DNA of 64,000 bases, from assembly GCA_029558955.1 (NCBI GenBank), contig JAKQCW010000150.1:18079-82078 (forward strand). The letters run 5' to 3'. Numbering within the stretch: the stretch's first letter is position 1; the number at the start of each line of letters is the position of its first letter. Position numbers and translations under genes: made by a program. Below the pieces are notes generated by a model. That model worked only from the letters and a program-made list of their open reading frames with translations. It ran no database searches and had not been told where the DNA came from. The DNA is from Chloroflexota bacterium (GTDB taxonomy: Bacteria; Chloroflexota; Anaerolineae; JAAEKA01). This document shows, piece by piece, positions 7,737 through 52,943 of this stretch.

Positions 7737-7744
7737 AGGTCGGT

Positions 7745-10481: not shown

Positions 10482-10483
10482 CC

Positions 10484-20809: not shown

Positions 20810-20823
20810 CAGGTCCTCCGATC

Positions 20824-22245: not shown

Positions 22246-22292
22246 GCGATGTCAATGAAGCTGCCGTTTGGGTGCGTTGGAGCGCCGCTGGG

Positions 22293-23783: not shown

Positions 23784-23793
23784 AGTTTATGCC

Positions 23794-25134: not shown

Positions 25135-25216
25135 GAAGGAGCTTATCCTCTCAAGCGGTCGCCCAAAATGAGCGGTGCGCAGGTCTGAACCTGGCGCACC
25201 GTTGACCGATGGCTGT

Positions 25217-26395: not shown

Positions 26396-26413
26396 TGGAA
26401 GGTGTCACCTGGC

Positions 26414-27883: not shown

Positions 27884-27899
27884 GGTGTTTTTCCGTGGG

Positions 27900-28088
27900 G
27901 ATGATGCGTAGTACGTAATGCGTAACTCGTAATGCGTAACCGGAATGGCGGGCTTTGGCTGCGGTGGCGAGCGTTCCGGGTTACGGGTTACGTGTTACGA
28001 GTTACTCATCACGCACGCGCAACCGGAACAAAAAGCCCTCGTCGCCAGCCAAACATTCCGGGTTACGAGTTACGCATTACGTGTTACG
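27900..28088. repeat. Family A CGTAAC palindromic repeat cluster between rSAM genes.
   Basis: cgtaatgcgtaactcgtaatgcgtaaccgg ... ccgggttacgggttacgtgttacgagttac forms a long inverted repeat. A second copy (ccgggttacgagttacgcattacgtgttacg) follows. It is the only sizeable intergenic gap inside the rSAM cluster. Confidence 0.6.
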
Positions 28089-28089
28089 A

Positions 28090-39209: not shown

Positions 39210-40307
39210 ATGTCCGAGATCATGATCGAAAATGTCACCAAACGTTTCGGCAACTTCACAGCGGTGGACAACGTCTCGCTGACTGTCGCCAACCAGGAGT
39301 TCATGGTGCTGCTGGGCCCCAGCGGTTGCGGCAAGACCACCCTGTTGCGCGCCATCGCCGGACTGGGCATGCCCGACGATGGCCGCATCAGCATCGGCGG
39401 GCACGATGTGACCTACCTGGCCCCGCGCGACCGGCACATCTCCATGGTTTTCCAGAGCTATGCCATCTTCCCGCACATGGACGTCTTCGACAACATCGCC
39501 TTTGGACTGAAGATGCAGAAGATGGGCAAAGCCGAGATCCAGGAGCGCGTCAAGCAGGCGGCCGAAATGATGCACATCGAGCAGATGCTGGATCGTTTTC
39601 CCTCCAAGATGAGCGGCGGCCAGCGCCAGCGAGTGGCCGTGGCGCGCGCCATCGCCATGCAGGCCCAGGTATTGCTGATGGACGAGCCGCTGAGCAACCT
39701 GGATGCGCTGCTGCGGCTGGAGATGCGGGCCGAATTGAAACGGCTGCTGGCAGAGCTGGGCGCCACGACCATCTACGTCACCCACGACCAGATCGAGGCC
39801 ATGAGCATGGGCGACCGCATCGCGGTGATGCGCGCCGGCATCATCGAACAGGTGAGCAGTCCCACCACGATCTATGATTTTCCGGCCAACCAGTTCATCG
39901 GCGGCTTCATCGGCACGCCGCCCATGAATTTCCTCCACGGCCAGATGCAGCGCCAGAACGGCCACAGCGTGGTGCGCATCGGCGAGTTCGACCTGACGCC
40001 CCAGCCGCTGATGCAGCCGCTGTTGGCCTCCTACGACGGCAAGCCCATCGTGGTCGGCATCCGCGCTGAGAACATGGAGACGCTGTCCAGCCCGGCCGAG
40101 GGTGCGCTGCGCGCCAGCGTGCTGGTGGTCGAGCCGCTGGGTTCGCAGAATCTCCTGACGGTCAAACTGGGTGACAGCCAGATGAAAGTCTCTACCCACC
40201 CTGATTTCACCACGCAGCCCGACGCCGATGTCTGGCTTCGTTTCCCAGCCGACAAGATCCGCTGGATCGATCCGGACACGAAGCGGGCGTTGTATCCGAA
40301 TGCGTGA
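39210..40307 (+). CDS. Sugar ABC transporter ATP-binding protein (MalK/UgpC-like).
   Basis: It has Walker A GPSGCGKTT, LSGGQRQRVAVARA, LLMDEP and a C-terminal TOBE domain. RBS AAGGAGA. Confidence 0.9.
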   Translation: MSEIMIENVTKRFGNFTAVDNVSLTVANQEFMVLLGPSGCGKTTLLRAIAGLGMPDDGRISIGGHDVTYLAPRDRHISMVFQSYAIFPHMDVFDNIAFGLKMQKMGKAEIQERVKQAAEMMHIEQMLDRFPSKMSGGQRQRVAVARAIAMQAQVLLMDEPLSNLDALLRLEMRAELKRLLAELGATTIYVTHDQIEAMSMGDRIAVMRAGIIEQVSSPTTIYDFPANQFIGGFIGTPPMNFLHGQMQRQNGHSVVRIGEFDLTPQPLMQPLLASYDGKPIVVGIRAENMETLSSPAEGALRASVLVVEPLGSQNLLTVKLGDSQMKVSTHPDFTTQPDADVWLRFPADKIRWIDPDTKRALYPNA

Positions 40308-40400
40308 CGAGTAATGCGTAACCCGTAACCCGGAATAGCCTCCCGCTTGCGCTCACTTCGGGTTACGCATTACCTGGTACGAGTTACGGGTTAAGACCCT
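40300..40400. repeat. Family A CGTAAC palindromic repeat.
   Basis: acgagtaatgcgtaacccgtaacccgg ... cgggttacgcattacctggtacgagttacgggtta. Confidence 0.5.
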
Positions 40401-40418: not shown

Positions 40419-41714
40419 ATGAACATCGCCTTCATTTCAACCCGCATCGCCGGCGTCGACGGGGTGTCGCTGGAGATTGCCAAACTGGCCATGATCTTGC
40501 GCCGGCTGGGGCATCACTGCTGCTTCTGCGCCGGTGAGCTGGACGCCAGCTTTGCGCCCGGTTTCCTCGTTCCAGAGATGCACTTCACCCATCCCGAGGC
40601 GCTGTGGATCCATGACCATTGCTTCGGAACGACGGAGGCTGCGCCCGGGCTGCGGGAGCGCATCGAGGCGCAGGCTGCCCGGCTGCACACGGCCATTGCC
40701 CGTTTTGTGGATGAACAACGCGTCGACGTGCTCTTCACCCAGAACGCGCTGTCGATACCCATGCAGGTCCCCCTGGGCGTGGCGCTGACCGACTTCATCG
40801 CCGCGACCGCCATCCCCACCCTGGCCCACAACCATGATCTGGCCTGGGAGCGGGAACGGTTCGCGGTCAACTGCATCCCCGATCTCCTGGAACGCTGCTT
40901 CCCGCCGGCTCTGCCCTCGGTGCAGCATCTGGTCATCAACTCGTTGGCTCAAACGGCGCTGCGGGAGCGCAAGGGCGTCGAGGCCGTGCTGCTGCCCAAC
41001 ATTTTCGACTTCGCTGCGGCCGCGCCGGCCATGACCCCTTTCAACGCCGATCTGCGCGCCAACCTGGGGCTGACCGACGACCACCTGCTGATCCTGCAGC
41101 CGACGCGCGTCATCCCCCGCAAGGGCATCGAACTGGCCATCGAGCTGGTGCGCCGGCTGCGGGAGCCGCAAAACCGGCGACGGCTGTTGGGCAAAGAGCC
41201 GGTGTTGGTCATCAGCCACTATGCCGGCGATGAGGGGCTGGCCTATCTGGCGAAGCTGCACGCGCTGGCCAGCGCGGCCGGCGCGCCGTTGATCTATGCG
41301 GCTGAGCATTTCGCGGCCGAGCCTGGCGTGACCGGCGGTCGCAAGGTCTACTCGTTGTGGGATGGCTACGTCCACGCCGATTTCGTCGCCTATCCCAGCC
41401 TGATCGAGGGTTTTGGCAATGCTCTGCTGGAGACGCTTTACTTCCGCCTGCCCGCGCTGGTCAACCGTTACGCCGTCTACACGGCCGACATCGCGCCCCG
41501 GGGATTCGACCTGATCGAAATCGACGCGCAGAATGACCCGGGCAACCTGGCCGCCATCACCGACGAGACAGTGGACGCGACTATCTGTGCCATCACCGAC
41601 CCCGTGCGCCGCCGTCGCATGGTCGAGTGGAACTACCAGCGGGCCCGCGAGAGCTATTCGTTCGAGGCGGTAACGCCGCTGCTCGCCAGCTTGTTGCAGG
41701 GATTGGCGCACTGA
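40419..41714 (+). CDS. GT4-family glycosyltransferase (compatible-solute-type, possibly mannosylglucosylglycerate/glucosylglycerate synthase-like).
   Basis: The product is 431 aa with a GT-B fold and a C-terminal E..E motif region (..IEGFGNALLETLYFRLPALVNRY..). Confidence 0.6.
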   Translation: MNIAFISTRIAGVDGVSLEIAKLAMILRRLGHHCCFCAGELDASFAPGFLVPEMHFTHPEALWIHDHCFGTTEAAPGLRERIEAQAARLHTAIARFVDEQRVDVLFTQNALSIPMQVPLGVALTDFIAATAIPTLAHNHDLAWERERFAVNCIPDLLERCFPPALPSVQHLVINSLAQTALRERKGVEAVLLPNIFDFAAAAPAMTPFNADLRANLGLTDDHLLILQPTRVIPRKGIELAIELVRRLREPQNRRRLLGKEPVLVISHYAGDEGLAYLAKLHALASAAGAPLIYAAEHFAAEPGVTGGRKVYSLWDGYVHADFVAYPSLIEGFGNALLETLYFRLPALVNRYAVYTADIAPRGFDLIEIDAQNDPGNLAAITDETVDATICAITDPVRRRRMVEWNYQRARESYSFEAVTPLLASLLQGLAH

Positions 41715-41729
41715 GAAGGGAGACAATAC

Positions 41730-42959
41730 ATGCGAATCGAAGTTCCTCATGATACTGAACGTCTCGGCGCTGTGCTGGTTCACGGTGTTCAGAAGGTGTT
41801 CGAGCTGGACTCTAGTCTGCTGGAGAGCGGGACGGAGGAATCGAAGATCGACCAGATCATCAGACCTATCGCCATCCAGGCCTGCCACGCCATCGAGCGC
41901 GAGATGGCCATCGTGGTTCCCGTCCACGGGGAACGGATCAAGCTGGTGGAGGGAGTATTGTGCGGCATACCTAACCACTGCCTGACCATCATCTGTTCCA
42001 ACAGCGCGCGCGAGCCGGTGGATCGTTATGCCATTGAGTTGGCGGCGTTTCTGCGCTACTCGCACTTCACCCAGAAGCGGCTGATCATTGTCCACCAGAA
42101 GGACCCGACGCTGGCCGAGGCCTTTCGCAACGCGGGCTTTCCGCAGATCCTGGACGAGCGCGACGGTCTGATCCGCAGCGGCAAGGCCGAGGGCATGGTG
42201 TTGGCCACGGTGCTGGCCAAGCTGGCTGGCAGCAAGGCTATCGGCTTCGTCGACTCTGACAACTACTTTCCCGGCGCGGTGCTGGAGTACGTGCGTGAGT
42301 ACTCGGCCGGGCTGTCCATGAGCAACTCGCCTTACGCCATGGTGCGCATCTCCTGGCACAGCAAGCCCAAGGTGATCGAGCAGGGGTTGTTCTTCGCCCG
42401 CTATGGCCGCACCAGCCGCACCACCAACCGCTACCTGAATCAACTCATCGCCGAGTATTCAGGCTTCGAGACCGAGATCATCACCACCGGCAACGCTGGC
42501 GAGCACGCCATGACCATGGCTCTGGCCATGCAGTTGGACTATTCGTCGGGCTACTCCATCGAGCCGTACCACTTCATCAATCTGTTCGAGAAGTTCGGCG
42601 GCCTGGACGAGCGCGCTCTGGACCGCGAGATGATTCGTCAGAACATCGAGATCTTCCAGATCGAGTCGCGCAACCCACATATGCACGATGTGGCCAAAGG
42701 CGACGAGCATATCGACGCCATGGCCTACGCGGCCATGCGGGTGATCCACGATTCCCCCATCTGTCCGCCCAAGCTGCGCGATGAGCTGGCCGAGGAGATC
42801 GATCGCCTGTTGGGTCGCAACCTGGTCCATGGCGAAGGCCCGACCGCGGTGCGCTATTACCCCACGCTCTCCGGCATCGACCTAGAGGCGTTTCGCGCGA
42901 CGATCCGCCAGCAGCCGTACGCGACGCATCTCTTGGGTGATGCGTCGCAGCCGTCTTGA
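41730..42959 (+). CDS. Putative mannosyl-3-phosphoglycerate synthase-like glycosyltransferase (GT55/GT81-like, GT-A fold).
   Basis: The 409-aa product has the acidic ..GFVDSDNYFPGAV.. DxD-like motif. The genomic context (HAD MpgP-like phosphatase and GH38 nearby) supports an assignment to glycosyl-glycerate compatible-solute synthesis. The family call is from memory only. Confidence 0.4.
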   Translation: MRIEVPHDTERLGAVLVHGVQKVFELDSSLLESGTEESKIDQIIRPIAIQACHAIEREMAIVVPVHGERIKLVEGVLCGIPNHCLTIICSNSAREPVDRYAIELAAFLRYSHFTQKRLIIVHQKDPTLAEAFRNAGFPQILDERDGLIRSGKAEGMVLATVLAKLAGSKAIGFVDSDNYFPGAVLEYVREYSAGLSMSNSPYAMVRISWHSKPKVIEQGLFFARYGRTSRTTNRYLNQLIAEYSGFETEIITTGNAGEHAMTMALAMQLDYSSGYSIEPYHFINLFEKFGGLDERALDREMIRQNIEIFQIESRNPHMHDVAKGDEHIDAMAYAAMRVIHDSPICPPKLRDELAEEIDRLLGRNLVHGEGPTAVRYYPTLSGIDLEAFRATIRQQPYATHLLGDASQPS

Positions 42960-43054
42960 CGATCGCTTCGGCCAGTCTCCGACCGATCTCGTCCGCTTTC
43001 ATCCATTGAAGCGCCGGCCCCGCTGGCGCGCGCGCGGTCCCGGAGAATCCCCAC

Positions 43055-46000
43055 ATGCAGCATCCTCTCCATCATTCCCACACCTCTGCTTCTGCCCAAC
43101 CCCTGACCATCCACCTGATCACCCACAACCACTGGGACCGGGAGTGGATCTTCACCGCCCGCTATGCCAACCGCTGGCTGCTCCCTTTTTTCGACAACCT
43201 GCTCGCGCGGCTGGCTGAGCAACCTGACTATCGTTTCGTGCTGGATGGTCAGACGTTGATCATCGAGGACTATCTGGCGCAGCTCGCGCCGGAGAAGGCC
43301 GCCCAGCGCGAGCGCGATATCCGTCGTTTTGCCCGCTCCGGCCAGCTTCTCCTCGGCCCAGCCTACTTGCAGCCAGATTGGAGCCTGGTCAGCGGCGAGT
43401 CTCTGGTGCGCAACCTGTTGATCGGCGACCGCGTGGCTCGTCGCTACGGCGCGCCTATGAAGGCCGCCTGGCTGTTGGACAACTTCGGCCAGGTGGCCCA
43501 GGCGCCGCAGATCCTGGCCGGTTTTGGCATCGAGGGCGCGTTCGTCTGGCGCGGGATTGAGATGCCGCCGGAGCAACTGCGCACCGAGTTCTGGTGGCAG
43601 GCGCCCGATGGCACGAGGGTGCTTGGCGTCTACTTGCTGGACAGCTACCGCAACGCCATGGTGTTGAGCATGACCCGGGAGATCGCCCAGCAGCGCATCC
43701 TCGCCCACACCGGGACCTTGCAGCGTTTCGCGACCACGCCCAACGTGCTGCTGATGAACGGCTATGAGCAGGTGCCGCAACCCGACGACGTGCTGCCCAT
43801 CATCGCGCAGTTCAACCAGCAGCATGGGCCGGCCATGCGGGCCGTGCAGAGCACGCCGCCAGACTACCTGGCCGCCGTGCAGGCCTATCAGCCCGACTTG
43901 CCCGTGTTGACCGGCTATTTTTACAGCGGCCGCTATGCGCCCATTCTCAAAGGCGTCTACTCCAGTCGCAGCTATCTGAACCAGCAGAACAACGAGTGCC
44001 AGCGGGAGCTGGAACGTTGGGCCGAGAAGTTCAGCACCTTCGCGTGGGCCTACGGCTCCGACTACCCGACTGAACGCATGCTCAAGGCCTGGAAGACGTT
44101 GCTGCTCAACCACACCCACGACGATCTGTGCGGCTGCTGCATCGACCCCATCGCCCGGGATATGGTCGAGCGCTTCGCAGAGGTGGACCGTTCGGCGCGC
44201 ATCATGTCGGGCGAGAGCCTGCAAGCCATCGCCCAATCGGTGGACACCACACAGGCGCCCGGCCCCGGCATCGTGATTTTCAACCCTTCCTCGCGCGTTC
44301 GCAGCGAGGTGGTAGGAATCGGCATCGAGGTCCCGGAGAGCTGGGAGAGCTTCTCGCTGGTGGATGGCCAGGGCCAGCCGTTGCCCTACCAGGTGCAGAA
44401 CAGCATCGGATCGCGCACCGAACTGTATCTGTGGGCGGCCGACGTGCCCTCGGTGGGCTATCGCATCTTCTATCTGACCCCGCAGGCATCCCCAGCCGCG
44501 CCGGCGGCGTCGCCTGTGGTCACCGCTTCGGCCGCAGATCAGCGCATGGAAAATCAGCACCTGGCAGTCGCCATCGAGGCCGACGGCGCGCTGACCGTCC
44601 ACGACAAGGCGCGTGGGCGCGTCTACGCCGGGTTGGGCTATTTCGAGGACGGCGGCGACTGCGGCGATACCTACGACTACTCCTACCCGGCCGAGGACCA
44701 GGTGATTCTGAGCCGCGGCGGCGAGGCCAGGGTGACGCTGGAGGTCGCCGGTCCGCTGCTGGCCCGCTTTCGCATCGAGACGGAGCTGGTGTTGCCGGCC
44801 AGCCTGGCCGCCGATCGCCAGTCGCGCAGCCCAGAGCGGCGCGTGCTGCCCATCATCTCTTTTGTGGAGCTGGCCGCCCACAGCCGCCACGTCGAGGTAC
44901 GCACGACCATCAGCAACACGGTCAAGGATCACCGACTGCGGGTACTCTTCCCCAGCGGCGTCCAGACTGAAGTCGCCCATGTCGGCATGCCCTTCGATGT
45001 GGCAGAGTTCCCGGTCGAGGAGAGCGGCAACAACGGCGAACTGCCTCCACAACTGGCCGGGCTGATGCTGGCCGGCCGCTACATCGCACCGGTCAACACC
45101 CATCCGTTTCAAGATTTCGTCAGCCTGGTGGATGCTCAGGCGGGGCTGACCGTGTTCAGCCGCGGGCTCAACGAGTTTCAGGTGTTGCCGGAGCAAGGCA
45201 ACGCCATCGCCTTGACCATGCTGCGCAGCGTGGGTTGGCTGGCGCGGTCCGACCTGTTGACCCGCATCGGCGACGTGGGGCCGCACATTTTCACGCCCGA
45301 AGCACAGGGATTGGGGGAGCAGACTTTCGAATATGGCATCTATCCCCACGGCCCAGACCTGTGGGCCGCCAACCCGCACTACGAATCCGACCGCCACGCG
45401 CTCAAGTTCCGCGCCGTGCGCACCGACGCTCACCCCGGCCGGCTGCCTGGCGAGCTTTCCTTCCTTTCCTGGATCGTCCAGGTCCCAGCCTACGCCTTCA
45501 AACTGACAGCCCTGAAGCATTCCGAGGCCGAGGACGGGCTGATCGTGCGCCTTTACAACGCCTGTGACCAAGAGGCGCGCGGCCAGTTGCGGTTGGGCGG
45601 TCTGGTGGTCAAAGCCTGGCGCGCCAATCTGAACGAGGAGCCGCTGGCTGAGCTGCCCGTGCAGGATGGCAACATCCCTGTAGTCGCCAAACCCAAGGAG
45701 ATCGTCACCCTCAAGGTCAAGCTGTCGCGCTCGCGGCTGATCTACGACTTCCCATCCGCGGCGACGCGTATCCTGCCCCCACTGACGCCGCGCGCGGATT
45801 TCGCCGTGGACGATCCACCCCTGCTCTTGAGCGAGGAAGAGGTGCACAGCGAGCAGATGCGCGCGCAGACTCTGAGCGAGGGGCTGCACGTCATCCGCAG
45901 CGACATTTACGACCTCCAGGAGGCCATCGAACGCCAGGCCGAGCCGCCGGTGCAACAGCTTGCCGCGCTGCAGAAGCTCAAAGGCCAAGAGGCCACTCTG

Positions 46001-46174
46001 GCCCGCCAGTACCACGAGGCGCGCATCTCGGCCTTGCTCAACCAGCAGCTCCTGATCACCCATCAGATCGAGACCGAGTTGGATGGCATCGGCGAGCAGC
46101 TCAACTGGGCCCGCGTGCGCAAGCGTGTGGGCGAGTTCTTGATCCATTACTACGATGGATTGATGAGCCAGTGA
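43055..46174 (+). CDS. GH38 alpha-mannosidase (mannosylglycerate hydrolase MngB-like).
   Basis: It has the N-terminal HLITHNHWDREW (the GH38 H-x-H-x-D-x-x-W signature) and is 1039 aa. Confidence 0.8.
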   Translation: MQHPLHHSHTSASAQPLTIHLITHNHWDREWIFTARYANRWLLPFFDNLLARLAEQPDYRFVLDGQTLIIEDYLAQLAPEKAAQRERDIRRFARSGQLLLGPAYLQPDWSLVSGESLVRNLLIGDRVARRYGAPMKAAWLLDNFGQVAQAPQILAGFGIEGAFVWRGIEMPPEQLRTEFWWQAPDGTRVLGVYLLDSYRNAMVLSMTREIAQQRILAHTGTLQRFATTPNVLLMNGYEQVPQPDDVLPIIAQFNQQHGPAMRAVQSTPPDYLAAVQAYQPDLPVLTGYFYSGRYAPILKGVYSSRSYLNQQNNECQRELERWAEKFSTFAWAYGSDYPTERMLKAWKTLLLNHTHDDLCGCCIDPIARDMVERFAEVDRSARIMSGESLQAIAQSVDTTQAPGPGIVIFNPSSRVRSEVVGIGIEVPESWESFSLVDGQGQPLPYQVQNSIGSRTELYLWAADVPSVGYRIFYLTPQASPAAPAASPVVTASAADQRMENQHLAVAIEADGALTVHDKARGRVYAGLGYFEDGGDCGDTYDYSYPAEDQVILSRGGEARVTLEVAGPLLARFRIETELVLPASLAADRQSRSPERRVLPIISFVELAAHSRHVEVRTTISNTVKDHRLRVLFPSGVQTEVAHVGMPFDVAEFPVEESGNNGELPPQLAGLMLAGRYIAPVNTHPFQDFVSLVDAQAGLTVFSRGLNEFQVLPEQGNAIALTMLRSVGWLARSDLLTRIGDVGPHIFTPEAQGLGEQTFEYGIYPHGPDLWAANPHYESDRHALKFRAVRTDAHPGRLPGELSFLSWIVQVPAYAFKLTALKHSEAEDGLIVRLYNACDQEARGQLRLGGLVVKAWRANLNEEPLAELPVQDGNIPVVAKPKEIVTLKVKLSRSRLIYDFPSAATRILPPLTPRADFAVDDPPLLLSEEEVHSEQMRAQTLSEGLHVIRSDIYDLQEAIERQAEPPVQQLAALQKLKGQEATLARQYHEARISALLNQQLLITHQIETELDGIGEQLNWARVRKRVGEFLIHYYDGLMSQ

Positions 46175-46222
46175 ACGGATATCGGATCACCGACCCCTGA
46201 TCGCCGACCACCGGTTACCGAG

Positions 46223-47092
46223 ATGCCCCATCCTGTCATCTTCACGGATATCGACGGCACGCTGCTGGATCTGGAGACCTATAGCCATGCGGCCAGTGCG
46301 GATGCAGCGGCGCGGCTGGTGGCGGCCGGCGTGCCGGTGGTGCTGTGCTCATCCAAAACCCGGGCGGAGCAGGAGCCGCTGCGGGCAGCGCTGGGCATTC
46401 CTGATCCGTTCATCGTCGAAAACGGCAGCGCGATCATCGCGCCGCCGGGCTACTTCGAGTTTGACCTGGACGCCGTTGGATGCGCGCCGGATCGGGCCGG
46501 CGAGCTGGCCTTGGGCGTCGAGGCAGCCGTCATCCGCCGGGCGCTGGTCGAGATCCGCCGCACGACGGGGCTGGCGCTGGTGGGCTACGCCGACCTGAGC
46601 GATGAGGAGGTGGCCGCCGTGACCGGCCTCGCCGTGACCGCAGCCCACCTCGCCCGCCAGCGGGACTACAGCGAGACCATCGTCAGCCCGCTGGCGCCGG
46701 CCGAGTTGGCAGCGTTGCGCGCCGCGCTGGCGGCGCGCGGGCTGGCTGTGGCCCATGGCGGCCGCTTCTACACCGTCAGCGGCGCAGCCAGCGACAAAGG
46801 CGTGGCCGTGCGACGGTGTACCCAGTTGCTGCGCCGCCAGTTGGGCGAGATCTTCACCATCGGCGTCGGCGACAGCGCCAACGATCTGCCCCTGCTGGCC
46901 GCAGTGGATCGTCCCTGTCTGGTGCGGCGTCCGGTCGGCGATTGGTGCGACGCGGGCGAATTGCCGGTGACGCGGCTCTCCGGCGTCGGCCCGCTGGGCT
47001 GGTGCGAGCTGGCCGAGGAAGTGTTGGCGCTGCATTCTCGTCCTGACCTTCGTCTCCAGCAAGAGAAAGAGCGTGCGGTGGTAGCATGGTGA
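46223..47092 (+). CDS. HAD-IIB phosphatase, mannosyl-3-phosphoglycerate phosphatase (MpgP/YedP)-like.
   Basis: It has HAD motif I FTDIDGTLLD and motif IV GDSANDLPLL. Confidence 0.7.
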   Translation: MPHPVIFTDIDGTLLDLETYSHAASADAAARLVAAGVPVVLCSSKTRAEQEPLRAALGIPDPFIVENGSAIIAPPGYFEFDLDAVGCAPDRAGELALGVEAAVIRRALVEIRRTTGLALVGYADLSDEEVAAVTGLAVTAAHLARQRDYSETIVSPLAPAELAALRAALAARGLAVAHGGRFYTVSGAASDKGVAVRRCTQLLRRQLGEIFTIGVGDSANDLPLLAAVDRPCLVRRPVGDWCDAGELPVTRLSGVGPLGWCELAEEVLALHSRPDLRLQQEKERAVVAW

Positions 47093-48846
47093 GTCCCGAA
47101 GAGCGTATTCAGCATTGGTTGGCATTTCTGTATGGCGCCGAACCTATGGCCGCGTTGTGGTCGAGCCTGGACGCCTTGCTGGCAGGTTTCAGGGCGCAGA
47201 TGGCGCGGGCCGGATCATGGGCGCCGCGCACCTTGCCAGGGCTAAGCCAGGAAGACGCCATCCTGATCACCTATGGGGACCAGATCAGCGAGCCGGGTGG
47301 TGCGACTCCGCCGCTGCGCACGCTCGCCCGGTTTCTGGATGCCGAGCTGGCCGGCAGCATCAGCGGCGTGCATATCCTGCCCTGCTTCCCCTACTCCTCC
47401 GACGACGGCTTCTCGGTGATCGACTATACACAGATTGACCCGGCGCTGGGCGATTGGGCCGACGTGGCGCGGCTGGGCGCGCGCTACCGGCTGATGTTCG
47501 ACTTCGTGGCCAACCACATCTCGCAGCACAGCGCCTGGTTCCAGGCCTACCGGCGCGGCGAGGCGCCTTATCACGGGTTCTTCATCGAAGTCGATCCGGC
47601 CGTCGATCTGTCGCAGGTGGTGCGGCCGCGCGCGCTGCCGCTCTTGACGGCGGTGGAGACCACGCGTGGGCCGCGCCACGTCTGGACCACCTTCAGCGCC
47701 GACCAGATCGACCTCGACTACGCCAATCCGGCCGTGCTGCTGACCATGACCGGGGTGTTGCTGCACTACGTGGCCCACGGCGCGGAGATCATCCGCCTGG
47801 ACGCCGTCGCCTACCTGTGGAAGCAGGTCGGCGCCTCCTGCATCCACCTGCCGCAGGCCCACGCTGTGATCAAGCTGTGGCGGGCCGTTCTGGACGCGGT
47901 CGCGCCGCATGTGCTGTTGATCACCGAGACCAACGTGCCCCACGCCGACAACATCAGCTACTTCGGCCAGACGCTGCCGGAGACCCGCGCCACCGACGAA
48001 GCACAACTGGTCTACAACTTCTCCCTGGCGCCGCTGACGCTGCACGCCCTGCTGACCGGCGACGCCGGCAAGCTGTCGGCCTGGGCCGCGACGCTGCAAG
48101 CGCCGGCTGGCGGCAGCTTTTTCAACTTCATCGCCTCCCACGACGGTATCGGCGTGCTGCCGGCGCGCGATATCCTGAGCGACGGCGAACTGCACACGCT
48201 GGTCGAGCGGACTCTGGCCCACGGCGGCCAGGTCAGCGTGCGCAGCCTGCCCGACGGCTCCCACACTCCCTACGAACTGAACATCACGCTGTACGACTTC
48301 CTCAATCGGCCGGGTCGGGCCGAGCTTGCGACCGACATCGCCCGCTTCCTGGCTTCGCAAGCCATTCTCTTGGCGCTGGCAGGCGTGCCGGGCATCTATG
48401 TTCACAGCCTGTTTGGCTCGCCCAACTGCCACGACTGCTTCGCCGAGACCGGACGGGCGCGTTCGCTCAACCGCAAAAAGTGGACCCTGGCTGAGCTGCG
48501 CCGTCTGCTGGCCGAGCCCCATGGCCAGGCGCGCCGCGTGTTCGATGGCTACCGGCGACTGCTCCACCTGCGCCGCGCCCAGCCGGCCTTTCATCCGGCC
48601 AGCAGCCAGCAGGTGTTGTATGGCGACCCGGCGCTTTTTACCCTGCTGCGCGGGGCTGAGCTGGAGAGGCCGCTGCTGTGCAGCGTCAATGTGTCGGACC
48701 GGCCGGCCACTCTGCGCCTCGACGCCGCCAGCCTGCCCGGCCGCGCCTGGCGCGATCTGCTCAGCGGGGAGGAATTTGTCGCGGCCGGTGCATATCTGAC
48801 TGCGCCGATGGATCTGTACCAGATCCGATGGCTGACGGTTGCGTAG
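47086..48846 (+). CDS. GH13_18 sucrose-phosphorylase-family glycoside phosphorylase (sucrose / glucosylglycerate / glucosylglycerol phosphorylase-like).
   Basis: It has ..FDFVANHIS.., ..IIRLDAVAY.., ..ITETN.. and ..ASHDGIGV.. motifs. The start overlaps the upstream stop. Confidence 0.7.
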   Translation: MVSPEERIQHWLAFLYGAEPMAALWSSLDALLAGFRAQMARAGSWAPRTLPGLSQEDAILITYGDQISEPGGATPPLRTLARFLDAELAGSISGVHILPCFPYSSDDGFSVIDYTQIDPALGDWADVARLGARYRLMFDFVANHISQHSAWFQAYRRGEAPYHGFFIEVDPAVDLSQVVRPRALPLLTAVETTRGPRHVWTTFSADQIDLDYANPAVLLTMTGVLLHYVAHGAEIIRLDAVAYLWKQVGASCIHLPQAHAVIKLWRAVLDAVAPHVLLITETNVPHADNISYFGQTLPETRATDEAQLVYNFSLAPLTLHALLTGDAGKLSAWAATLQAPAGGSFFNFIASHDGIGVLPARDILSDGELHTLVERTLAHGGQVSVRSLPDGSHTPYELNITLYDFLNRPGRAELATDIARFLASQAILLALAGVPGIYVHSLFGSPNCHDCFAETGRARSLNRKKWTLAELRRLLAEPHGQARRVFDGYRRLLHLRRAQPAFHPASSQQVLYGDPALFTLLRGAELERPLLCSVNVSDRPATLRLDAASLPGRAWRDLLSGEEFVAAGAYLTAPMDLYQIRWLTVA

Positions 48847-48902: not shown

Positions 48903-49679
48903 CTAATAGGTCCGCCTGAACACAATCACATAGGAAAAGTGCTTGTACGGGGGCAGGGGGCAGTTGTCCACGGTGGGGCAGGTGTCGCCCAGCTTGCCGG
49001 CGATGTCCGCAGGCACAGGCGCGACCAGCGACATGGTGCGCGAGGTCTCGCTGCTCACCGGCTGGCCGCCCACGCTTTCCACCTTGAGGCGAAACTCCTC
49101 GCGGTCCATCAGGATCTCAGCTTTGCCCGGCCCCTTGTCGCCGGTGACGGCCTGGCCGGGGTAGGGCGCGGTGTTGACCAGCAGCGCCCCGTCGATGGGG
49201 TTGCCGGCTGCGTCGAGCACGGTGATGTAGATGTTGCGCTGCCCGCCCAGCTCGATGCCGCCGTTGTTCTCATCCAGGCCCAGCGCGCGCAGCTCGGCGA
49301 TGACGAAATCGACCGCCGGCGCCGGGGTGTTGGTCGGCGCGGCCGGCGCCGGTGTGGCGGTAGGGGCCGCGGGCGGGGCGGTCGGTGCAACGGCCACGGC
49401 TGTGGGCGTCGGCTGCGGCGCGGGGGTGGCGGTGGCCGGCGGCGCTGGCGTTTCAGTGGCCGTGGGCTCCGGCGTATCGGTCGGCGCAACCGTGGGCGTC
49501 GCCGACGGCGGCGGGCTCGGAGTCGTGGTGGGGGTGGCCGTCGCTGGCAGCGCCGTGGGCGTCACAGTCTTGGTGGGGGTGGGAGTGGCCGCTGGCTCGG
49601 CCGGGCCGCAGCCGGCCAGCAGCATGGCCAGCAGGCCCGTCAAGACAGCCAGGCAGATGAACCGCGTGGATCGCGCCAT
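48903..49679 (-). CDS. Lipoprotein with a Pro/Thr/Ala-rich linker, hypothetical.
   Basis: It has the signal plus lipobox LLAGC and about 100 aa of PT-rich low complexity, followed by a C-terminal globular domain. Confidence 0.5.
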   Translation of the reverse strand: MARSTRFICLAVLTGLLAMLLAGCGPAEPAATPTPTKTVTPTALPATATPTTTPSPPPSATPTVAPTDTPEPTATETPAPPATATPAPQPTPTAVAVAPTAPPAAPTATPAPAAPTNTPAPAVDFVIAELRALGLDENNGGIELGGQRNIYITVLDAAGNPIDGALLVNTAPYPGQAVTGDKGPGKAEILMDREEFRLKVESVGGQPVSSETSRTMSLVAPVPADIAGKLGDTCPTVDNCPLPPYKHFSYVIVFRRTY

Positions 49680-50121: not shown

Positions 50122-50361
50122 TCACGGCAGCGCATAGCAGGCGCCGGCGTTGGACATGACGTAGGGGCAGCCGTTGACGTGGCCGCAGACCGTGCAGTCG
50201 ATGGCCGCGCGGTCCTCGATGCGCTCCAGCCGGCCCATGCGCACCAGCTCGGCCAGCATCCCCTCCAGCACCGCCGGCTCCAGGTCGAGCTGCGCGGCCA
50301 GCAGGTCCACGCTGAGCGGGCCGGGGGCGTTGCCAAAAAGAGTTAGGAGTTGACGTAACAT
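50122..50361 (-). CDS. feoC: FeoC-like ferrous iron transport regulator (winged helix plus Cys cluster). It is possibly extended N-terminally through the heptad repeat to 50715.
   Basis: Sequence: MLRQLLTLFGNAPGPLSVDLLAAQLDLEPAVLEGMLAELVRMGRLERIEDRAAIDCTVCGHVNGCPYVMSNAGACYALP. It has a wHTH plus a C..C....C......C cluster, like FeoC/YhgG, and lies downstream of feoB. Confidence 0.6.
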   Translation of the reverse strand: MLRQLLTLFGNAPGPLSVDLLAAQLDLEPAVLEGMLAELVRMGRLERIEDRAAIDCTVCGHVNGCPYVMSNAGACYALP

Positions 50362-50365
50362 TGTG

Positions 50366-50770
50366 GTCGGTGGTCGGTGGTCGGTGAACGGTGAACGGTG
50401 AACGGTGAACGGTGGTCGGTGGTCGGTGGTCGGTGAACGGTGGTCGGTGGTCGGTGAACGGTGGTCGGTGAACGGTGAACGGTGAACGGTGAACGGTGAA
50501 CGGTGAACGGTGGTCGGTGGTCGGTGAACGGTGAACGGTGGTCGGTGGTCGGTGAACGGTGGTCGGTGAACGGTGAACGGTGGCCGGTGAACGGTGGTCG
50601 GTGAACGGTGAACGGTGGCCGGTGGTCGGTGAACGGTGAACTGTGAATGGTGAATGGCAAACTGCGAATAGTGAACGGTCATCGGTGCAGCGATCACCCT
50701 CCGTTTACCGTTCACCGTTCACCGTTTACCCTCCGCTTACCGTTCACCGTTCACCGTTTACCCTCCACCG
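50366..50770. repeat. Heptanucleotide microsatellite (GGTGAAC/GGTGGTC)n of about 40 units, followed by inverted (GTTCACC)n copies.
   Basis: The direct 7-bp repeats run from 50366 to about 50650. Reverse-complement copies (ccgttcaccgttcaccgtttaccc) lie at 50700..50770. The region is stop-free on the minus strand in all frames, giving HRPPFTV-type translations. Confidence 0.9.
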
Positions 50771-50771
50771 T

Positions 50772-52943
50772 TCACCCTCCGAACAGCCACCCAGCCACCC
50801 GGTAAGTCACGAAACCGGTGATCCAGGCCAGCGCCAGCAGGTAGGTGAAGCTGAAGGCCATCCATTTGCCGCCGAATTCGGCCTTCAGCGCGCCCATGGC
50901 AGCGATGCAGGGGGCGTAGAGCAGCACGAAGACCAGAAAGGCCAGCGCGGACGCGGGGGTGAAATGGGTTTGCAGCGCCTGGCTGAGGGCCGTGTCGGTC
51001 TGGGGCGGTTCATCTCCCATCAGGTCGACGCCGGGGATCATGCTCAACACGATGCGCGCCGAGTCGACTACCGCCTGGCCAAAGCCGACCACGATGCCGC
51101 GCACGTCCGCGGCCAGATCCACCGGCTCAGGCGGCTCGTCCGGCGCGTCTCCCAGGTAGATCACGGCCATGCTGCTGATCACCACCTCCTTGGCCACCAG
51201 TCCCGTGACCAGCGAGCCCGCGGCTTGCCAATTGCCAAAGCCCAGCGGCTCGAAGGCGGGAGCGATCGCGCCGGCCAGCCGGCCAAAGACGCTCTCCTCA
51301 GTGCTGGCCACCCCCACCGGCAGGTTGAGCAGCGCCCAGACGGTGACGGAGGCGGCCAGGATCAGCGTGGCCGCCTTGTGTACGAATTCCGCGCTGTGCC
51401 GCCACATGTGGGTGCGCAGGCCGCGCCAGGCCGGCAGGCGATAGGGGGGCAACTCCAACACGAAGAGCGAATCGGTGGTCTTGCCGAAAAGGGTGCGGCG
51501 CATCAGCAGGCCGGTCAGCACAGCCAGCGCGATGCCCAGCAGGTAGAGCCCAAAGATCACCGCGCTGGCGTGCCGGGGGAAGAAGGCCGCGGCGAAGATC
51601 ACGTAGACCGGCAGGCGGGCCGCACAGCTCATCAGCGGCACCATCAGCCCGGTCAGAATGCGGTCACGGCGGTTTTCCAGCGTGCGGGTGGCCAGAATGC
51701 CGGGCACGTTGCAGCCAAAGCCGACGATCAGCGGGATGAAGCTCTTGCCGTGCAGTCCCAGCAGGTGCATCAGCTTGTCCATGACGAACGCTGCCCGCGC
51801 CATGTAGCCGCTGTCCTCCAGCAGCGCCAGGCAGAGATAGAGAATCAGCAACACCGGCAGGAAGACCAACACCCCGCCCACGCCGGCCATCACCCCATCG
51901 ACCAGCAGCGAGGTCAGCCAGGCCGGCGCGGCCACGGCGCTCAAGGCGGCCGCGACCCAGTTGGCCAGCACACCGTTGACGGTGGCATCGATCCAGTCCA
52001 CAAAGGGGGCGGAGGCGTCGGCGGTCAGCTTGAAGACCAGCGCCATCAGCCCGAAAAAGATGGGCAGACCCAGCACGCGGTGGGCGGCGATGTCGTCGAT
52101 GCGGTCGGTCAGGCTGCGCGGGCGATGTCCGCCGTGGCGCTTGACCACCTGATGGGCCAGGCCGTGCACGAAGCCATAGCGGCGGTCGGCCACCAGCAGC
52201 TCCACGTCGTCGCCGTAGACAGCCTGGACGCGGGCCGCGGCCTCCTCAGCCTGCTGGCGCAGCGCCGCGGCCTGCGGCGTGTCGCCCAGCGCCTGTGCGA
52301 CCAGCCGATCTCCTTCCAGCAGCTTGAGCGTGGTATAGCGCGGCGTGTCGCTGGCGATCAGCGCGCCGAGCTGCGGCTGCAAGGCGGCGATCTCCGCTTC
52401 CAGCTCGTTCCCGTAGTCGATCAGGTTGGGGTGTGACGCGGCCTCGGTCACGGCCAGGCCGACCAGGTCCATCAGCCCCTGGCGACGGGTGCCCACCGTG
52501 GGAACCACCGGCACGCCCAGCAGCCGGGCCAGCAGTTCCACGTCGATGGCGATCCCCTCGGCTTCGGCGCGGTCCATCATGTTCAACGCCAGCGTCACCG
52601 GCGCGCCCAGCTCCAGCACCTGCGCGGCCAGGTAGAGGTTGCGCTCCAGGTTGGTGGCGTCGGCGACGACGATGGCTGCATCGGGCCGCTGCTCCAGGAT
52701 GAAATCGCGCGCGATGACCTCCTCCGGCGAGTGCGCGCTGAGGCTGTACGTGCCGGGCAGGTCGACCAGCGTCACCGCCTGGCCGTTCCAGCGCACGACG
52801 CCCGACGCGACCTCCACCGTCTTGCCGGGCCAGTTGCCCACATGTTGTCTGCCCCCGGTCAGGGTGTTGAAGATGGTGCTTTTGCCGGCGTTGGGGTTGC
52901 CTGCCAGAACCACCACCGGCGAGGTGTCTGCTTTACCGGCCAT
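50772..52943 (-). CDS. feoB: Ferrous iron transport protein B.
   Basis: It has N-terminal G-protein motifs ([13 protein letters not shown]) plus a polytopic membrane domain, and is 723 aa. Confidence 0.95.

What the first reader, a model, noticed from the sequence alone, without database searches (positions are those of the whole stretch)
40419..48846. Compatible-solute locus: GT4 plus MpgS-like GT plus MpgP-like HAD phosphatase interleaved with GH38 alpha-mannosidase and a GH13_18 phosphorylase, downstream of a LacI-controlled ABC importer
The two-step synthase/phosphatase pair (glycosyl-3-phosphoglycerate synthase then HAD phosphatase) is the established route to mannosylglycerate or glucosylglycerate. 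GH38 (MngB-type) hydrolyses mannosylglycerate, and GH13_18 enzymes phosphorolyse sucrose, glucosylglycerate or glucosylglycerol. The GT4 could add a second sugar (a mannosylglucosylglycerate-type solute). Biosynthetic and catabolic genes for the same solute in one apparent operon, with uptake genes, is an unusual arrangement. It suggests dynamic turnover of the osmolyte, or a pathway to a larger glycoside.
Basis: partly seen in the sequence, partly recalled or inferred. Interest (0 to 1): 0.55.

Follow-up and report, generated by a model that had tools for sequence, protein, structure and literature searches.

The report
Sugar-glycerate solute operon in Anaerolineae
An uncultured Anaerolineae bacterium carries one operon with genes to import, make and break down mannosylglycerate and glucosylglycerate-type protective sugars; every enzyme family in it is already known, and only the way two known gene modules are joined here appears to be new.

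Summary
Five co-directional genes (40419-48846) encode:
- an MggS-like GT4;
- a GT55 mannosyl-3-phosphoglycerate synthase, above the NCBIfam equivalog cutoff;
- an MngB-type GH38;
- an MpgP-family HAD-IIB phosphatase;
- a GH13_18 phosphorylase.

They follow LacI and an ABC importer.

Three refinements:
1. The GH13_18 enzyme belongs to the glucosylglycerate phosphorylase (GGaP) type. It is 40% identical to E. coli YcjM and has both GGaP signature motifs. It should therefore act on glucosylglycerate, not on the mannosylglycerate made by MpgS/MpgP.
2. The locus joins two modules. GT4+GGaP is a widespread pair (GH13 present in 40 of 80 species loci, adjacent in 29). mpgS-GH38-mpgP is a cassette of a Chloroflexota clade. 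In close relatives the same operon slot holds a GH63 glycosylglycerate hydrolase instead.
3. The five genes recur together in at least five other distinct metagenomic loci, in different gene orders, which argues for a functional link.

Best reading: MpgS/MpgP make mannosylglycerate and GH38 hydrolyses it. GGaP reversibly interconverts glucosylglycerate with glucose-1-phosphate plus glycerate. GT4 probably mannosylates glucosylglycerate. The importer takes up or recaptures such solutes. No substrate has been demonstrated.

Verdict: a new variant of known systems, of moderate interest.

The parts
32826..32854 (+). Sigma-70-like promoter match (TTGACA-17-TACGAT, with TG) about 60 nt upstream of the LacI start
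   Evidence: This is a consensus match only: 4 were found in the region against 2.4 expected from shuffles.
32915..33946 (+). LacI-family repressor (343 aa; true start MAVTIRDIAERTG)
   Evidence: Pfam LacI HTH plus Peripla_BP_3/1. Start taken from the translation and from the BLASTP alignment to YcjW (26% identity, E 4e-40). It is the first gene in the same orientation in L005, L007, L085, L086 and L088.
34137..36773 (+). Lipoprotein solute-binding protein with two tandem SBP_bac_1 domains (878 aa after the lipobox LLISAC)
   Evidence: The two halves are 81% identical. The same architecture is present in L085, L086 and L088.
36834..38234 (+). ABC permease 1 (BPD_transp_1), carrying a roughly 200-residue extracytoplasmic insert that matches SH3_3
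   Evidence: The 466-aa orthologues in L085, L086 and L088 are 76-89% identical.
38231..39121 (+). ABC permease 2 (296 aa)
   Evidence: Gene call on an identical contig. BLASTP to YcjP: 34% identity, E 4e-24.
39210..40307 (+). MalK-type ABC ATPase (ABC_tran + OB_MalK + TOBE_2)
   Evidence: Start taken from the gene call on an identical contig. 45% identical to YcjV.
40311..40373 (.). Perfect 15-bp inverted repeat (GTAATGCGTAACCCG ... CGGGTTACGCATTAC) in the MalK-GT4 gap. It belongs to a dispersed REP-like repeat.
   Evidence: MFE -39.8 kcal/mol, z = -3.05; 13 motif copies in the window against 0.03 expected.
40419..41714 (+). GT4 retaining glycosyltransferase, MggS/MggA-like (431 aa). Predicted to mannosylate glucosylglycerate.
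   Evidence: NF041101, 228 bits, below the 640 cutoff. Invariant R230/K235 and E330-x7-E338. AlphaFold model with pLDDT 91. Nearest solved folds are MshA, sucrose-phosphate synthase, WaaG and BshA. A GH13 gene is adjacent in 29 of 80 species loci.
41730..42959 (+). GT55 mannosyl-3-phosphoglycerate synthase (MpgS, 409 aa)
   Evidence: TIGR02460, 458 bits, above the 351 cutoff. 364 bits, full length, to T. thermophilus MpgS 2WVK. The segments DSDNYFPG and NPHMH are conserved.
43055..46174 (+). Cytoplasmic GH38 alpha-mannosidase, MngB-type (1039 aa). Predicted hydrolase of mannosylglycerate and/or MGG.
   Evidence: 29% identity over about 850 aa to E. coli MngB, E 6e-108. HNHWDREW and DNFG align with the matching segments of the E. 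faecalis GH38 3LVT. No signal peptide. It sits between mpgS and mpgP in L085 and L089-L095.
46223..47092 (+). HAD-IIB mannosyl-3-phosphoglycerate phosphatase (MpgP, 289 aa)
   Evidence: TIGR01486, 245 bits, above the 165 cutoff. 125 bits to T. thermophilus MpgP 3ZTW. The DIDGT and GDSAND motifs are present.
47086..48846 (+). GH13_18 glucosylglycerate-phosphorylase-type enzyme (586 aa). Its start overlaps the mpgP stop by 7 nt.
   Evidence: 40% identity over the full length to E. coli YcjM, E 1e-140. ITETNVPH and PYELN signatures. RLDA nucleophile, catalytic Glu and SHD present. These are invariant in 10 sequences: E. coli YcjM and nine GH13s from GT4-carrying loci. Signature definition from PMC7178133. 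Overlap.

Best explanation
The locus is a composite operon for sugar-glycerate compatible solutes, made of two modules.

Module 1, mpgS-GH38-mpgP, makes and breaks mannosylglycerate (MG):
- MpgS condenses GDP-mannose with 3-phosphoglycerate.
- MpgP dephosphorylates the product to MG.
- The cytoplasmic MngB-type GH38 hydrolyses MG (and possibly the mannosyl cap of MGG) to mannose plus glycerate.

Module 2 is LacI, the ABC importer, GT4 and GGaP, and it handles glucosylglycerate (GG):
- The importer, with its double binding protein, takes up or recaptures such solutes.
- GGaP reversibly interconverts GG + Pi with alpha-glucose-1-phosphate + D-glycerate.
- The MggS-like GT4 most likely adds mannose from GDP-mannose to GG to give mannosylglucosylglycerate (MGG).

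In close relatives the slot between GT4 and GGaP holds a GH63 glycosylglycerate hydrolase. Here that slot holds mpgS-GH38-mpgP, so GH38 is the functional stand-in for GH63.

Shown: gene identities, signature motifs, synteny and recurrence. Inferred: all substrates, the direction of GGaP in vivo, LacI control and the identity of the transported solute.
For: Family membership:
- MpgS passes its equivalog cutoff and aligns over its full length with T. thermophilus MpgS.
- MpgP passes the MPGP-family cutoff and keeps the HAD motifs.
- GH38 is homologous over its whole length to E. coli MngB, the mannosidase of the mannosylglycerate PTS operon.
- GH13_18 is 40% identical to the characterised GGaP YcjM and carries both published GGaP motifs.

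Synteny:
- A GH13 gene is present in 40, and adjacent to GT4 in 29, of 80 species loci across several phyla.
- LacI, the double SBP, two permeases, MalK, GT4, X and GH13 are conserved in relatives. X is GH63 in L005-L007, L086 and L088, and X is mpgS-GH38-mpgP in the window and L085.
- GH63 enzymes of this family hydrolyse MG and GG (PMC5381378).
- The cassette genes diverge together (MpgS 61-67%, GH38 61-72%, MpgP 53-58% identity to the window). They sit beside GT4+GH13 in L089/90, L091, L092 and L094 in different orders and orientations. The GT4 partners fall in different branches of the GT4 tree.
- mpgP and GH13 overlap by 4-7 nt in the window, L085 and L092.

Literature: an MggS homologue next to a sucrose-phosphorylase-like gene, and a route GG -> MGG, were proposed for R. 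baltica. MggS activity has been shown for a T. maritima homologue (PMC3736172).
Against: - No activity was measured for any of the proteins.
- GT4 scores far below the MggS equivalog cutoff (228 against 640), as do all other GT4s tested from the related loci. The R. baltica MggS homologue showed no activity when tested.
- GH38 is only 29% identical to MngB. MngB acts on the 6-phosphorylated solute delivered by a PTS (from my own knowledge of Sampaio et al. 2004), whereas this locus has an ABC importer.
- Making and hydrolysing MG from one transcript would be a futile cycle unless there is unseen regulation or internal promoters.
- No LacI operator was found.
- No glycerate kinase or GDP-mannose synthesis gene lies in the window.
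- L093 shows that the cassette can stand alone, so a metabolic link between the two modules is not obligatory.
Confidence: 0.55

Rival explanations
1. The two modules share a location but have no metabolic link. LacI/ABC/GT4/GGaP would be a scavenging operon for exogenous glucosylglycerate-type solutes, similar to the E. coli ycj cluster. The mpgS-GH38-mpgP cassette would be an independent osmolyte unit that landed in the hydrolase slot and is merely co-regulated.
For: - The cassette occurs alone in L093, and most MpgS loci have no GT4 or GH13 (1 of 80).
- Most GT4+GH13 loci lack MpgS (0 of 80).
- The relative L086 carries YcjQ- and YcjS-like dehydrogenases, and the window's LacI, MalK and GH13 resemble YcjW, YcjV and YcjM.
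Against: - The cassette has joined GT4+GH13 modules whose GT4s lie on at least three different branches of the GT4 tree, and in different gene orders. Chance insertion is unlikely to do this repeatedly.
- mpgP and GH13 are translationally coupled by overlapping stop and start codons in three loci.
- The cassette replaces the one hydrolase gene whose known substrates include MG.
Confidence: 0.2
2. GT4 glycosylates mannosylglycerate rather than glucosylglycerate, giving a new diglycosyl-glycerate such as glucosyl-mannosylglycerate. The GH13_18 enzyme would then remove the alpha-glucosyl cap by phosphorolysis, and GH38 would finish the breakdown.
For: - It would give all five enzymes one linear pathway on the MG that the operon itself makes.
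- The acceptor of GT4 is unknown, and GT4 is not a strict MggS equivalog.
Against: - The residues that define glycerate binding in GGaP (Asn of TETN, loop-A Glu) are invariant between this enzyme, GT4-linked GH13s from loci without any mpgS, and E. coli YcjM.
- The window GT4 is 77-78% identical to GT4s of GH63-type loci that carry no mpgS, so a change of acceptor is unlikely.
Confidence: 0.12
3. The MpgS homologue works in vivo as a glucosyl-3-phosphoglycerate synthase. The whole operon would then be a single MGG pathway: GPG -> GG -> MGG, with GH38 removing mannose and GGaP splitting GG.
For: - It would remove the mismatch between an MG synthase and a GG phosphorylase.
- Elsewhere the GT4+GGaP pair is associated with GpgS (17 of 80 loci; L002 has GpgS plus a histidine phosphatase).
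Against: - The protein scores above the MpgS equivalog cutoff. It aligns over its full length with T. thermophilus MpgS and keeps the conserved motifs.
- The positions invariant in alignment A2 are shared between cassette-type MpgS sequences and more distant homologues of other phyla (Flammeovirgaceae, Cyclobacteriaceae, Phycisphaerae), with no sign of a specificity shift.
- Donor-sugar contact residues were not examined individually.
Confidence: 0.06
4. The solute is only a primer. The locus would start a larger intracellular glycan on a glycerate aglycone, as glucosylglycerate primes mycobacterial methylglucose lipopolysaccharide.
For: Related loci (L002, L010, L011, L031, L068, L072) carry GT4-family genes of up to three types next to GpgS, a histidine phosphatase (GpgP-like) and GH13.
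Against: The window has a single GT4. It has no methyltransferase, acyltransferase or further glycosyltransferase in the operon. It does have two degradative enzymes and an importer.
Confidence: 0.05

Closest known systems
Two-step mannosylglycerate pathway mpgS-mpgP (Thermus thermophilus, Pyrococcus horikoshii)
   Same: GT55 synthase (364 bits to 2WVK) and HAD-IIB phosphatase (125 bits to 3ZTW), with conserved motifs.
   Different: Here a GH38 gene is inserted between the two genes. In 46 of 80 metagenome loci the two genes are directly adjacent. Here they also lie inside a LacI/ABC operon.
E. coli mngR-mngA-mngB mannosylglycerate utilisation operon
   Same: A GH38 homologous to MngB over about 850 residues (29% identity, E 6e-108) in a locus concerned with mannosylglycerate.
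   Different: E. coli imports by PTS, so MngB sees the 6-phosphorylated solute (from my own knowledge of Sampaio et al. 2004). Here import is by ABC transporter and MG is also made in the cytoplasm, so the substrate would be unphosphorylated. The regulator here is LacI-type, not the MngR repressor of E. coli. The window GH38 is about 160 residues longer.
E. coli ycj cluster (YcjM glucosylglycerate phosphorylase, YcjW LacI repressor, YcjNOPV ABC transporter)
   Same: GGaP (40% identity), a LacI-type repressor (26%), a MalK-type ATPase (45%) and a CUT1-type permease (34%). A relative (L086) also has YcjQ- and YcjS-like dehydrogenases.
   Different: The ycj cluster has no GT4, MpgS, MpgP or GH38. 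The binding protein shows no BLASTP match to YcjN at E <= 1e-3. The window has no kojibiose phosphorylase or beta-phosphoglucomutase.
Rhodopirellula baltica mggS-homologue / mggB / sucrose-phosphorylase-like operon, and the Petrotoga/Thermotoga MggS route to mannosylglucosylglycerate
   Same: An MggS-like GT4 next to a GH13_18 phosphorylase. A proposed non-phosphorylating route: phosphorylase makes GG, then GT4 makes MGG (PMC3736172).
   Different: The R. baltica MggS homologue was inactive, and its phosphorylase was reported to act on sucrose. The window enzyme has the GGaP signature. The window adds an MG cassette and an importer.
GH63 mannosylglycerate/glucosylglycerate hydrolases (MgH of Thermus and Rubrobacter; GgH of Mycobacterium hassiacum)
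   Same: They occupy the same operon position in the nearest relatives (L005-L007, L086, L088), and they lie next to mpgS-mpgP in 11 of 80 metagenome loci. They carry out the same predicted step, hydrolysis of a glycosylglycerate.
   Different: The window has no GH63. An unrelated GH38 fold takes the position, which is a non-orthologous replacement.

Membership tests
GT55 mannosyl-3-phosphoglycerate synthase (MpgS) | Scores above the curated equivalog model cutoff, with a full-length match | tested here: met
   TIGR02460: 458 bits against a cutoff of 351, residues 3-392 of 409. Pfam PF09488: 463 bits.
GT55 mannosyl-3-phosphoglycerate synthase (MpgS) | Conserved DxD metal site and the NPH(L/M)H histidine. 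The PDB chains 2WVK and 2WVM differ at this histidine (NPHLH against NPALH). | tested here: met
   FVDSDNYFPG and RNPHMH align with FIDADNYFPG and RNPHLH of 2WVK.
GT55 mannosyl-3-phosphoglycerate synthase (MpgS) | Uses GDP-mannose and 3-phosphoglycerate | not testable with these tools
   Requires an enzyme assay.
HAD-IIB mannosyl-3-phosphoglycerate phosphatase (MpgP) | Passes the family model and has HAD motifs I and IV | tested here: met
   TIGR01486: 245 bits against a cutoff of 165. FTDIDGTLLD and GDSANDLP are present.
HAD-IIB mannosyl-3-phosphoglycerate phosphatase (MpgP) | Passes the strict equivalog model TIGR02461 | tested here: not met
   229 bits against a cutoff of 244, a narrow miss. 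Adjacency to mpgS in the cassette supports the role.
GH13_18 glucosylglycerate phosphorylase (GGaP, EC 2.4.1.352) | [quoted passage not shown] | tested here: met
   ITETNVPH. T280, E281, T282 and N283 are invariant across YcjM and nine GH13s from GT4-carrying loci.
GH13_18 glucosylglycerate phosphorylase (GGaP, EC 2.4.1.352) | Glu in loop A, where most other GH13_18 clades have Gln | tested here: met
   PYELN aligns with the IYQVN segment of the best PDB match 7QQI and with PYEIN of YcjM.
GH13_18 glucosylglycerate phosphorylase (GGaP, EC 2.4.1.352) | Closer to a characterised GGaP than to sucrose, sucrose-6F-phosphate or glucosylglycerol phosphorylases | tested here: inconclusive
   BLASTP to YcjM gives 408 bits and 40% identity over the full length. 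The best phmmer scores to solved sucrose-phosphorylase-type, GGoP and SPP chains are 122-175 bits. The scores come from different programs and no tree with reference enzymes was built.
GH13_18 glucosylglycerate phosphorylase (GGaP, EC 2.4.1.352) | Phosphorolysis of 2-O-alpha-glucosylglycerate, with no activity on sucrose | not testable with these tools
   Requires an enzyme assay.
GH38 MngB-type alpha-mannosidase | Four-domain GH38 architecture with the conserved N-terminal segments HxHWDREW and DxFG. I take these to include the metal ligands and the nucleophile Asp; that role assignment is from my own knowledge. | tested here: met
   PF01074, PF09261, PF07748 and PF17677 all match. HNHWDREW and DNFG align with the matching segments of 3LVT.
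GH38 MngB-type alpha-mannosidase | Passes the MngB equivalog model | tested here: not met
   PRK09819: 474 bits against a cutoff of 1138. 29% identity to E. coli MngB. It is a distant relative, not an orthologue.
Mannosylglucosylglycerate synthase (MggS, GT4) | Passes the NCBIfam equivalog model NF041101 | tested here: not met
   228 bits against a cutoff of 640. The six other MggS-like GT4s tested from related loci score 227-263 bits.
Mannosylglucosylglycerate synthase (MggS, GT4) | Retaining GT-B GT4 fold with the R/K phosphate-binding pair and the E-x7-E motif. This motif definition is from my own knowledge. | tested here: met
   R230, K235, E330 and E338 are invariant in 23 homologues. Model pLDDT 91. 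Top structural matches are GT4 enzymes with small soluble acceptors.
Mannosylglucosylglycerate synthase (MggS, GT4) | Transfers mannose from GDP-mannose to glucosylglycerate | not testable with these tools
   Shown only for a T. maritima homologue in the literature.

The most novel reading that the evidence does not exclude
The merged operon interconverts two osmolytes. GH38 would be a new GH38 specificity: a cytoplasmic hydrolase of unphosphorylated mannosylglycerate and/or of the mannosyl cap of MGG. The glycerate it releases would be re-used by GGaP running in the synthetic direction (glucose-1-phosphate + glycerate -> glucosylglycerate). GT4 would then mannosylate that product to mannosylglucosylglycerate. 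The cell could thereby shift its pool between MG and MGG without a GpgS/GpgP pathway. The repeated independent joining of the cassette to GT4+GGaP modules would reflect selection for this shunt.
Probability: 0.15. Interest if true: 0.6.

Novelty: new variant of a known kind. Interest (0 to 1): 0.4.

Why it matters
Mannosylglycerate and glucosylglycerate are studied as stress protectants and as cosmetic or biocatalysis products. How cells remove them or interconvert them is much less well known than how they make them.

This locus and its relatives give three testable leads:
1. A GH38 that probably hydrolyses unphosphorylated mannosylglycerate. It is a non-orthologous substitute for the known GH63 hydrolases.
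2. Genomic support, across many phyla, for the long-proposed but unproven route that pairs a glucosylglycerate phosphorylase with an MggS-like GT4.
3. A candidate ABC importer for sugar-glycerates with an unusual duplicated binding protein.

It also places mannosylglycerate metabolism in Anaerolineae known only from metagenomes. None of this overturns current understanding; it extends known pathways.

Tried and rejected
- LacI operator: a search for short palindromes upstream of LacI, upstream of the binding-protein gene and in the MalK-GT4 gap found nothing convincing. The strong hairpin in that gap proved to be a dispersed REP-like repeat, not an operator.
- Promoters and terminators: the scan gave no more sites than shuffled sequence, so operon boundaries rest on gene spacing and on the convergent downstream ORF.
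- RNA genes: Rfam and tRNA scans of the whole window found nothing.
- Sequence search of the PDB with GT4 gave only marginal WaaG hits. The fold search confirms a GT4 GT-B fold but cannot assign donor or acceptor.
- The similarity to the E. coli ycj cluster is generic apart from YcjM. I do not treat the locus as a ycj orthologue.
- I first read the window/L085 arrangement as a derived insertion into a GH63-type operon, from the NJ tree. L092 has the same five-gene order at only 71% GT4 identity. I therefore leave the direction of the GH63 <-> cassette exchange open.
- Papers: I could not open the original GGaP paper. Searches of the held library found no structural paper on T. thermophilus MpgS and no paper describing an mpgS-linked GH38. 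The library is incomplete, so this is weak evidence of novelty.
- No glycerate kinase, hexokinase or GDP-mannose synthesis gene was found in the window.

Full report
**1. The observation**

The window is GC-rich (61-71%). A protein 100% identical to the window GT4 is held in public collections as a protein of an Anaerolineae MAG.

All lie on the + strand and have the third-position GC expected of real genes.

Pfam and NCBIfam assign them as follows:
- a GT4 glycosyltransferase whose only strong curated match is mannosylglucosylglycerate synthase (228 bits, below the 640 cutoff);
- a mannosyl-3-phosphoglycerate synthase (TIGR02460, 458 bits, above the 351 cutoff);
- a four-domain GH38 whose best curated match is MngB (474 bits, below the 1138 cutoff);
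- an MpgP-family HAD-IIB phosphatase (TIGR01486, 245 bits, above the 165 cutoff);
- a GH13 enzyme whose best curated match is sucrose phosphorylase (193 bits, below the 334 cutoff).

Upstream, in the same orientation, lie these genes:
- a LacI repressor (true start 32915);
- a lipoprotein with two solute-binding domains (34137-36773);
- two permeases;
- a MalK-type ATPase.

The gaps between the five enzyme genes are 15, 95 and 48 nt. The mpgP stop overlaps the GH13 start by 7 nt. The next ORF downstream lies on the opposite strand.

**2. The individual enzymes**

- MpgS aligns end to end with T. thermophilus MpgS (364 bits). It keeps the DxD segment and the NPHxH histidine.
- MpgP aligns with T. 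thermophilus and P. horikoshii MpgP and keeps HAD motifs I and IV.
- GH38 is 29% identical to E. coli MngB over about 850 residues (E 6e-108). Its nearest solved relative is the Enterococcus faecalis GH38 (PDB 3LVT), with the conserved HxHWDREW and DxFG segments aligned. It has no signal peptide, so it acts in the cytoplasm.
- GT4 has no close solved relative. A confident AlphaFold model (pLDDT 91) is a GT-B fold nearest to retaining GT4 enzymes that use small soluble acceptors: MshA, sucrose-phosphate synthase, BshA and WaaG. The R/K pair and the E-x7-E motif are invariant in 23 homologues.

**3. The GH13_18 enzyme is of the glucosylglycerate-phosphorylase type**

The review by Franceus and Desmet (PMC7178133) gives two sequence marks that separate GGaP from the other GH13_18 specificities:
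- a Glu in loop A (Glu383), where most other clades have Gln.

The window protein reads ITETNVPH and PYELN. It is 40% identical over its full length to E. coli YcjM (E 1e-140), a GGaP that RefSeq annotates as such. Both marks are invariant in an alignment of YcjM with nine GH13s from loci that also carry a GT4.

This enzyme should therefore act on glucosylglycerate. That is not the product of MpgS/MpgP.

**4. Comparative context: two modules**

*GT4 side.* GT4 homologues are very numerous. In 80 species-representative genome loci found with a GT4 profile:
- 40 carry a GH13 of this type, and in 29 it lies within 600 nt of GT4;
- 17 carry a GpgS;
- 4 carry a GH63;
- none carries MpgS, MpgP or GH38.

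The loci come from Chloroflexota, Verrucomicrobiota, Planctomycetota, Spirochaetota, Desulfobacterota and Thermotogota.

*Nearest relatives.* They share the backbone LacI, double SBP, permease with SH3-like insert, second permease, MalK, GT4, X, GH13.
- X is a GH63 (Pfam MGH1-like; NCBIfam glucosylglycerate hydrolase, 368 bits) in L005, L006, L007, L086 and L088. L005 and L086 have three further genes there.
- X is mpgS-GH38-mpgP in the window and in L085.

GH63 enzymes of this family hydrolyse mannosylglycerate and glucosylglycerate (PMC5381378). GH38 therefore sits where a known glycosylglycerate hydrolase sits in sister genomes.

*MpgS side.* In 80 metagenome loci found with an MpgS profile:
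- 50 have mpgP, directly adjacent in 46;
- 11 have a GH63 nearby;
- 10 have a GH38;
- only 1 has GT4 and GH13.

A hydrolase beside the synthase genes is thus a recurrent design.

*The cassette.* The specific order mpgS-GH38-mpgP is found in the loci whose MpgS is at least 61% identical to the window's: L085, L089/90, L091, L092, L093, L094 and L095, whose contig ends before mpgP. Where the source names an organism, it is Chloroflexota.

Within that group the cassette stands alone in L093. Elsewhere it is joined to GT4+GH13 in several layouts:
- GT4-cassette-GH13 (window, L085, L092);
- MalK-GH13-GT4-cassette (L091, L094);
- cassette convergent with GT4-GH13-MalK (L089/90).

The three cassette genes diverge in step (MpgS 61-67%, GH38 61-72%, MpgP 53-58% identity to the window). 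The partner GT4s range from 47% to 85% identity and fall on different branches of a neighbour-joining tree.

That tree has no support values, and L092's partial GT4 is not in it. I therefore claim only that the association arose or was rearranged repeatedly. I do not claim the direction of the GH63 <-> cassette exchange.

**5. How it most likely works**

Shown: gene identities, signature motifs, operon-like spacing, and recurrent co-location in shuffled order.

Inferred from knowledge of the families:
- MpgS and MpgP make mannosylglycerate from GDP-mannose and 3-phosphoglycerate.
- GH38 hydrolyses it, and perhaps also the mannosyl cap of MGG.
- GGaP interconverts glucosylglycerate + Pi with alpha-glucose-1-phosphate + D-glycerate. 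The reaction is reversible and efficient with glycerate as acceptor (PMC11009771).
- GT4 adds mannose to glucosylglycerate, as shown for a T. maritima MggS homologue and proposed for R. baltica (PMC3736172).
- The ABC system imports or recaptures such solutes, and LacI represses the set.

D-glycerate is the metabolite common to both modules. That gives a possible reason for their repeated joining.

Weak points:
- GT4 is far from the MggS equivalog cutoff, and the R. baltica homologue was inactive.
- GH38 is a distant MngB relative, and its substrate here would be unphosphorylated.
- Synthesis and hydrolysis of MG from one transcript implies regulation that I cannot see.
- No operator was identified.

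**6. Rivals**

- Co-location without a metabolic link (a ycj-like scavenging operon plus an independent MG cassette) is the main rival. It is supported by L093 and by the rarity of the fusion. It is weakened by the repeated, differently ordered joins and by mpgP-GH13 translational coupling in three loci.
- A pathway in which GT4 extends MG and the phosphorylase removes a glucosyl cap conflicts with the invariant glycerate-binding signature, and with the 77-78% identity between the window GT4 and GT4s of loci without mpgS.
- MpgS acting as a GpgS would unify the operon, but it has no sequence support.
- A primer for a larger glycan fits the L002-type loci, which have three GT4s, GpgS and a histidine phosphatase. 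It does not fit this window.

**7. Comparison with known systems, and novelty**

All five enzyme families and three of the pairwise associations are known:
- mpgS with mpgP;
- GGaP with glucosylglycerate genes;
- an MggS homologue with a sucrose-phosphorylase-like gene.

MngB as the GH38 of mannosylglycerate catabolism is also known.

I could not find the following in the held literature:
- a GH38 embedded between mpgS and mpgP;
- its exchange with GH63 at one operon position;
- the repeated fusion of this cassette with the ABC/GT4/GGaP module.

I rate the finding a new variant of a known kind, with interest 0.4.

**8. Limits**

- Neighbourhood statistics use stop-to-stop ORFs scored with phmmer at E <= 1e-8 and >= 100 bits.
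- They cover only the best 80 loci per scan, and many metagenome contigs are short.
- No enzyme activity, transcript or solute was measured.

Noticed in passing
window 18721-31192 (- strand): Eight radical SAM genes on the minus strand, seven of them consecutive (20824-31192). Six carry an N-terminal B12-binding domain and one carries a SPASM domain. This looks like a heavily tailoring peptide- or natural-product-modification cluster. No precursor gene was looked for.
   Followed up: no
window 34137-36773: The ABC binding protein is a single lipoprotein made of two tandem SBP_bac_1 domains that are 81% identical to each other. Each ends in CWAPDAPSDGPCQV. The duplication is conserved in L085, L086 and L088. 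In L086 and L088 the two halves are more alike (88-91%) than orthologous halves are (85%), which suggests gene conversion.
   Followed up: partly
window 36834-38234: The first ABC permease carries a roughly 200-residue insert after its first transmembrane helix that matches the bacterial SH3_3 domain. It is conserved (466 aa) in relatives. It may be a docking surface for the double binding protein.
   Followed up: no
window 40311-40373; also 4565-4634, 7787-7801, 27915-28080: A dispersed REP-like repeat built on GTAATGCGTAACCCG and GTAACCCG units, with 13 matches in the window against 0.03 expected. In the MalK-GT4 gap it forms a perfect 15-bp-stem hairpin. It might affect mRNA stability or the relative expression of the transporter and enzyme halves of the operon.
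   Followed up: partly
L002 10001-18300 (also L010, L011, L031, L068, L072): A different locus type in Chloroflexota. L002, L010 and L011 carry three GT4-family genes in a row (L031, L068 and L072 have a subset), followed by a glucosyl-3-phosphoglycerate synthase fused to an N-terminal Usp domain (661 aa), a histidine-phosphatase (GpgP-like) and a GGaP-type GH13. This may be a pathway to a larger glucosylglycerate-based glycoside.
   Followed up: partly
L086 13024-16990 and L005 13006-16972: In some close relatives the slot between GH63 and GH13 also holds a zinc-type alcohol dehydrogenase (31% identical to E. coli YcjQ), a GFO/IDH/MocA oxidoreductase (27% identical to YcjS) and a GH36-like melibiase. 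This echoes the E. coli ycj cluster, whose natural substrate is, to my knowledge, still unknown.
   Followed up: partly
L108, L112-L115: In another MpgS lineage, mpgS is followed directly by a MalK-type ATPase and, where the contig extends far enough (L112-L114), ABC permease genes, with no adjacent mpgP. This may be another link between mannosylglycerate synthesis and ABC uptake.
   Followed up: no
window 45750-46174 (GH38 residues about 900-1039): The GH38 extends about 140-160 residues beyond the end of its alignment with E. coli MngB. The extension has no Pfam match, and part of it looks helical and charged. Orthologues in L085, L089 and L092 are of similar length (1026-1039 aa).
   Followed up: no
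window 6387-11551: A second ABC system: an SBP_bac_6-type binding protein, a 774-aa fused double permease and a MalK-like ATPase ORF. It is unrelated to the sugar-glycerate locus.
   Followed up: no
window 48903-49679 (- strand): A convergent 258-aa ORF immediately downstream of the operon has no Pfam match. A strong sigma-70-like promoter match (11 of 12) lies at 49876-49848 on the same strand. FeoC- and FeoB-like genes follow at 50122-52943.
   Followed up: no
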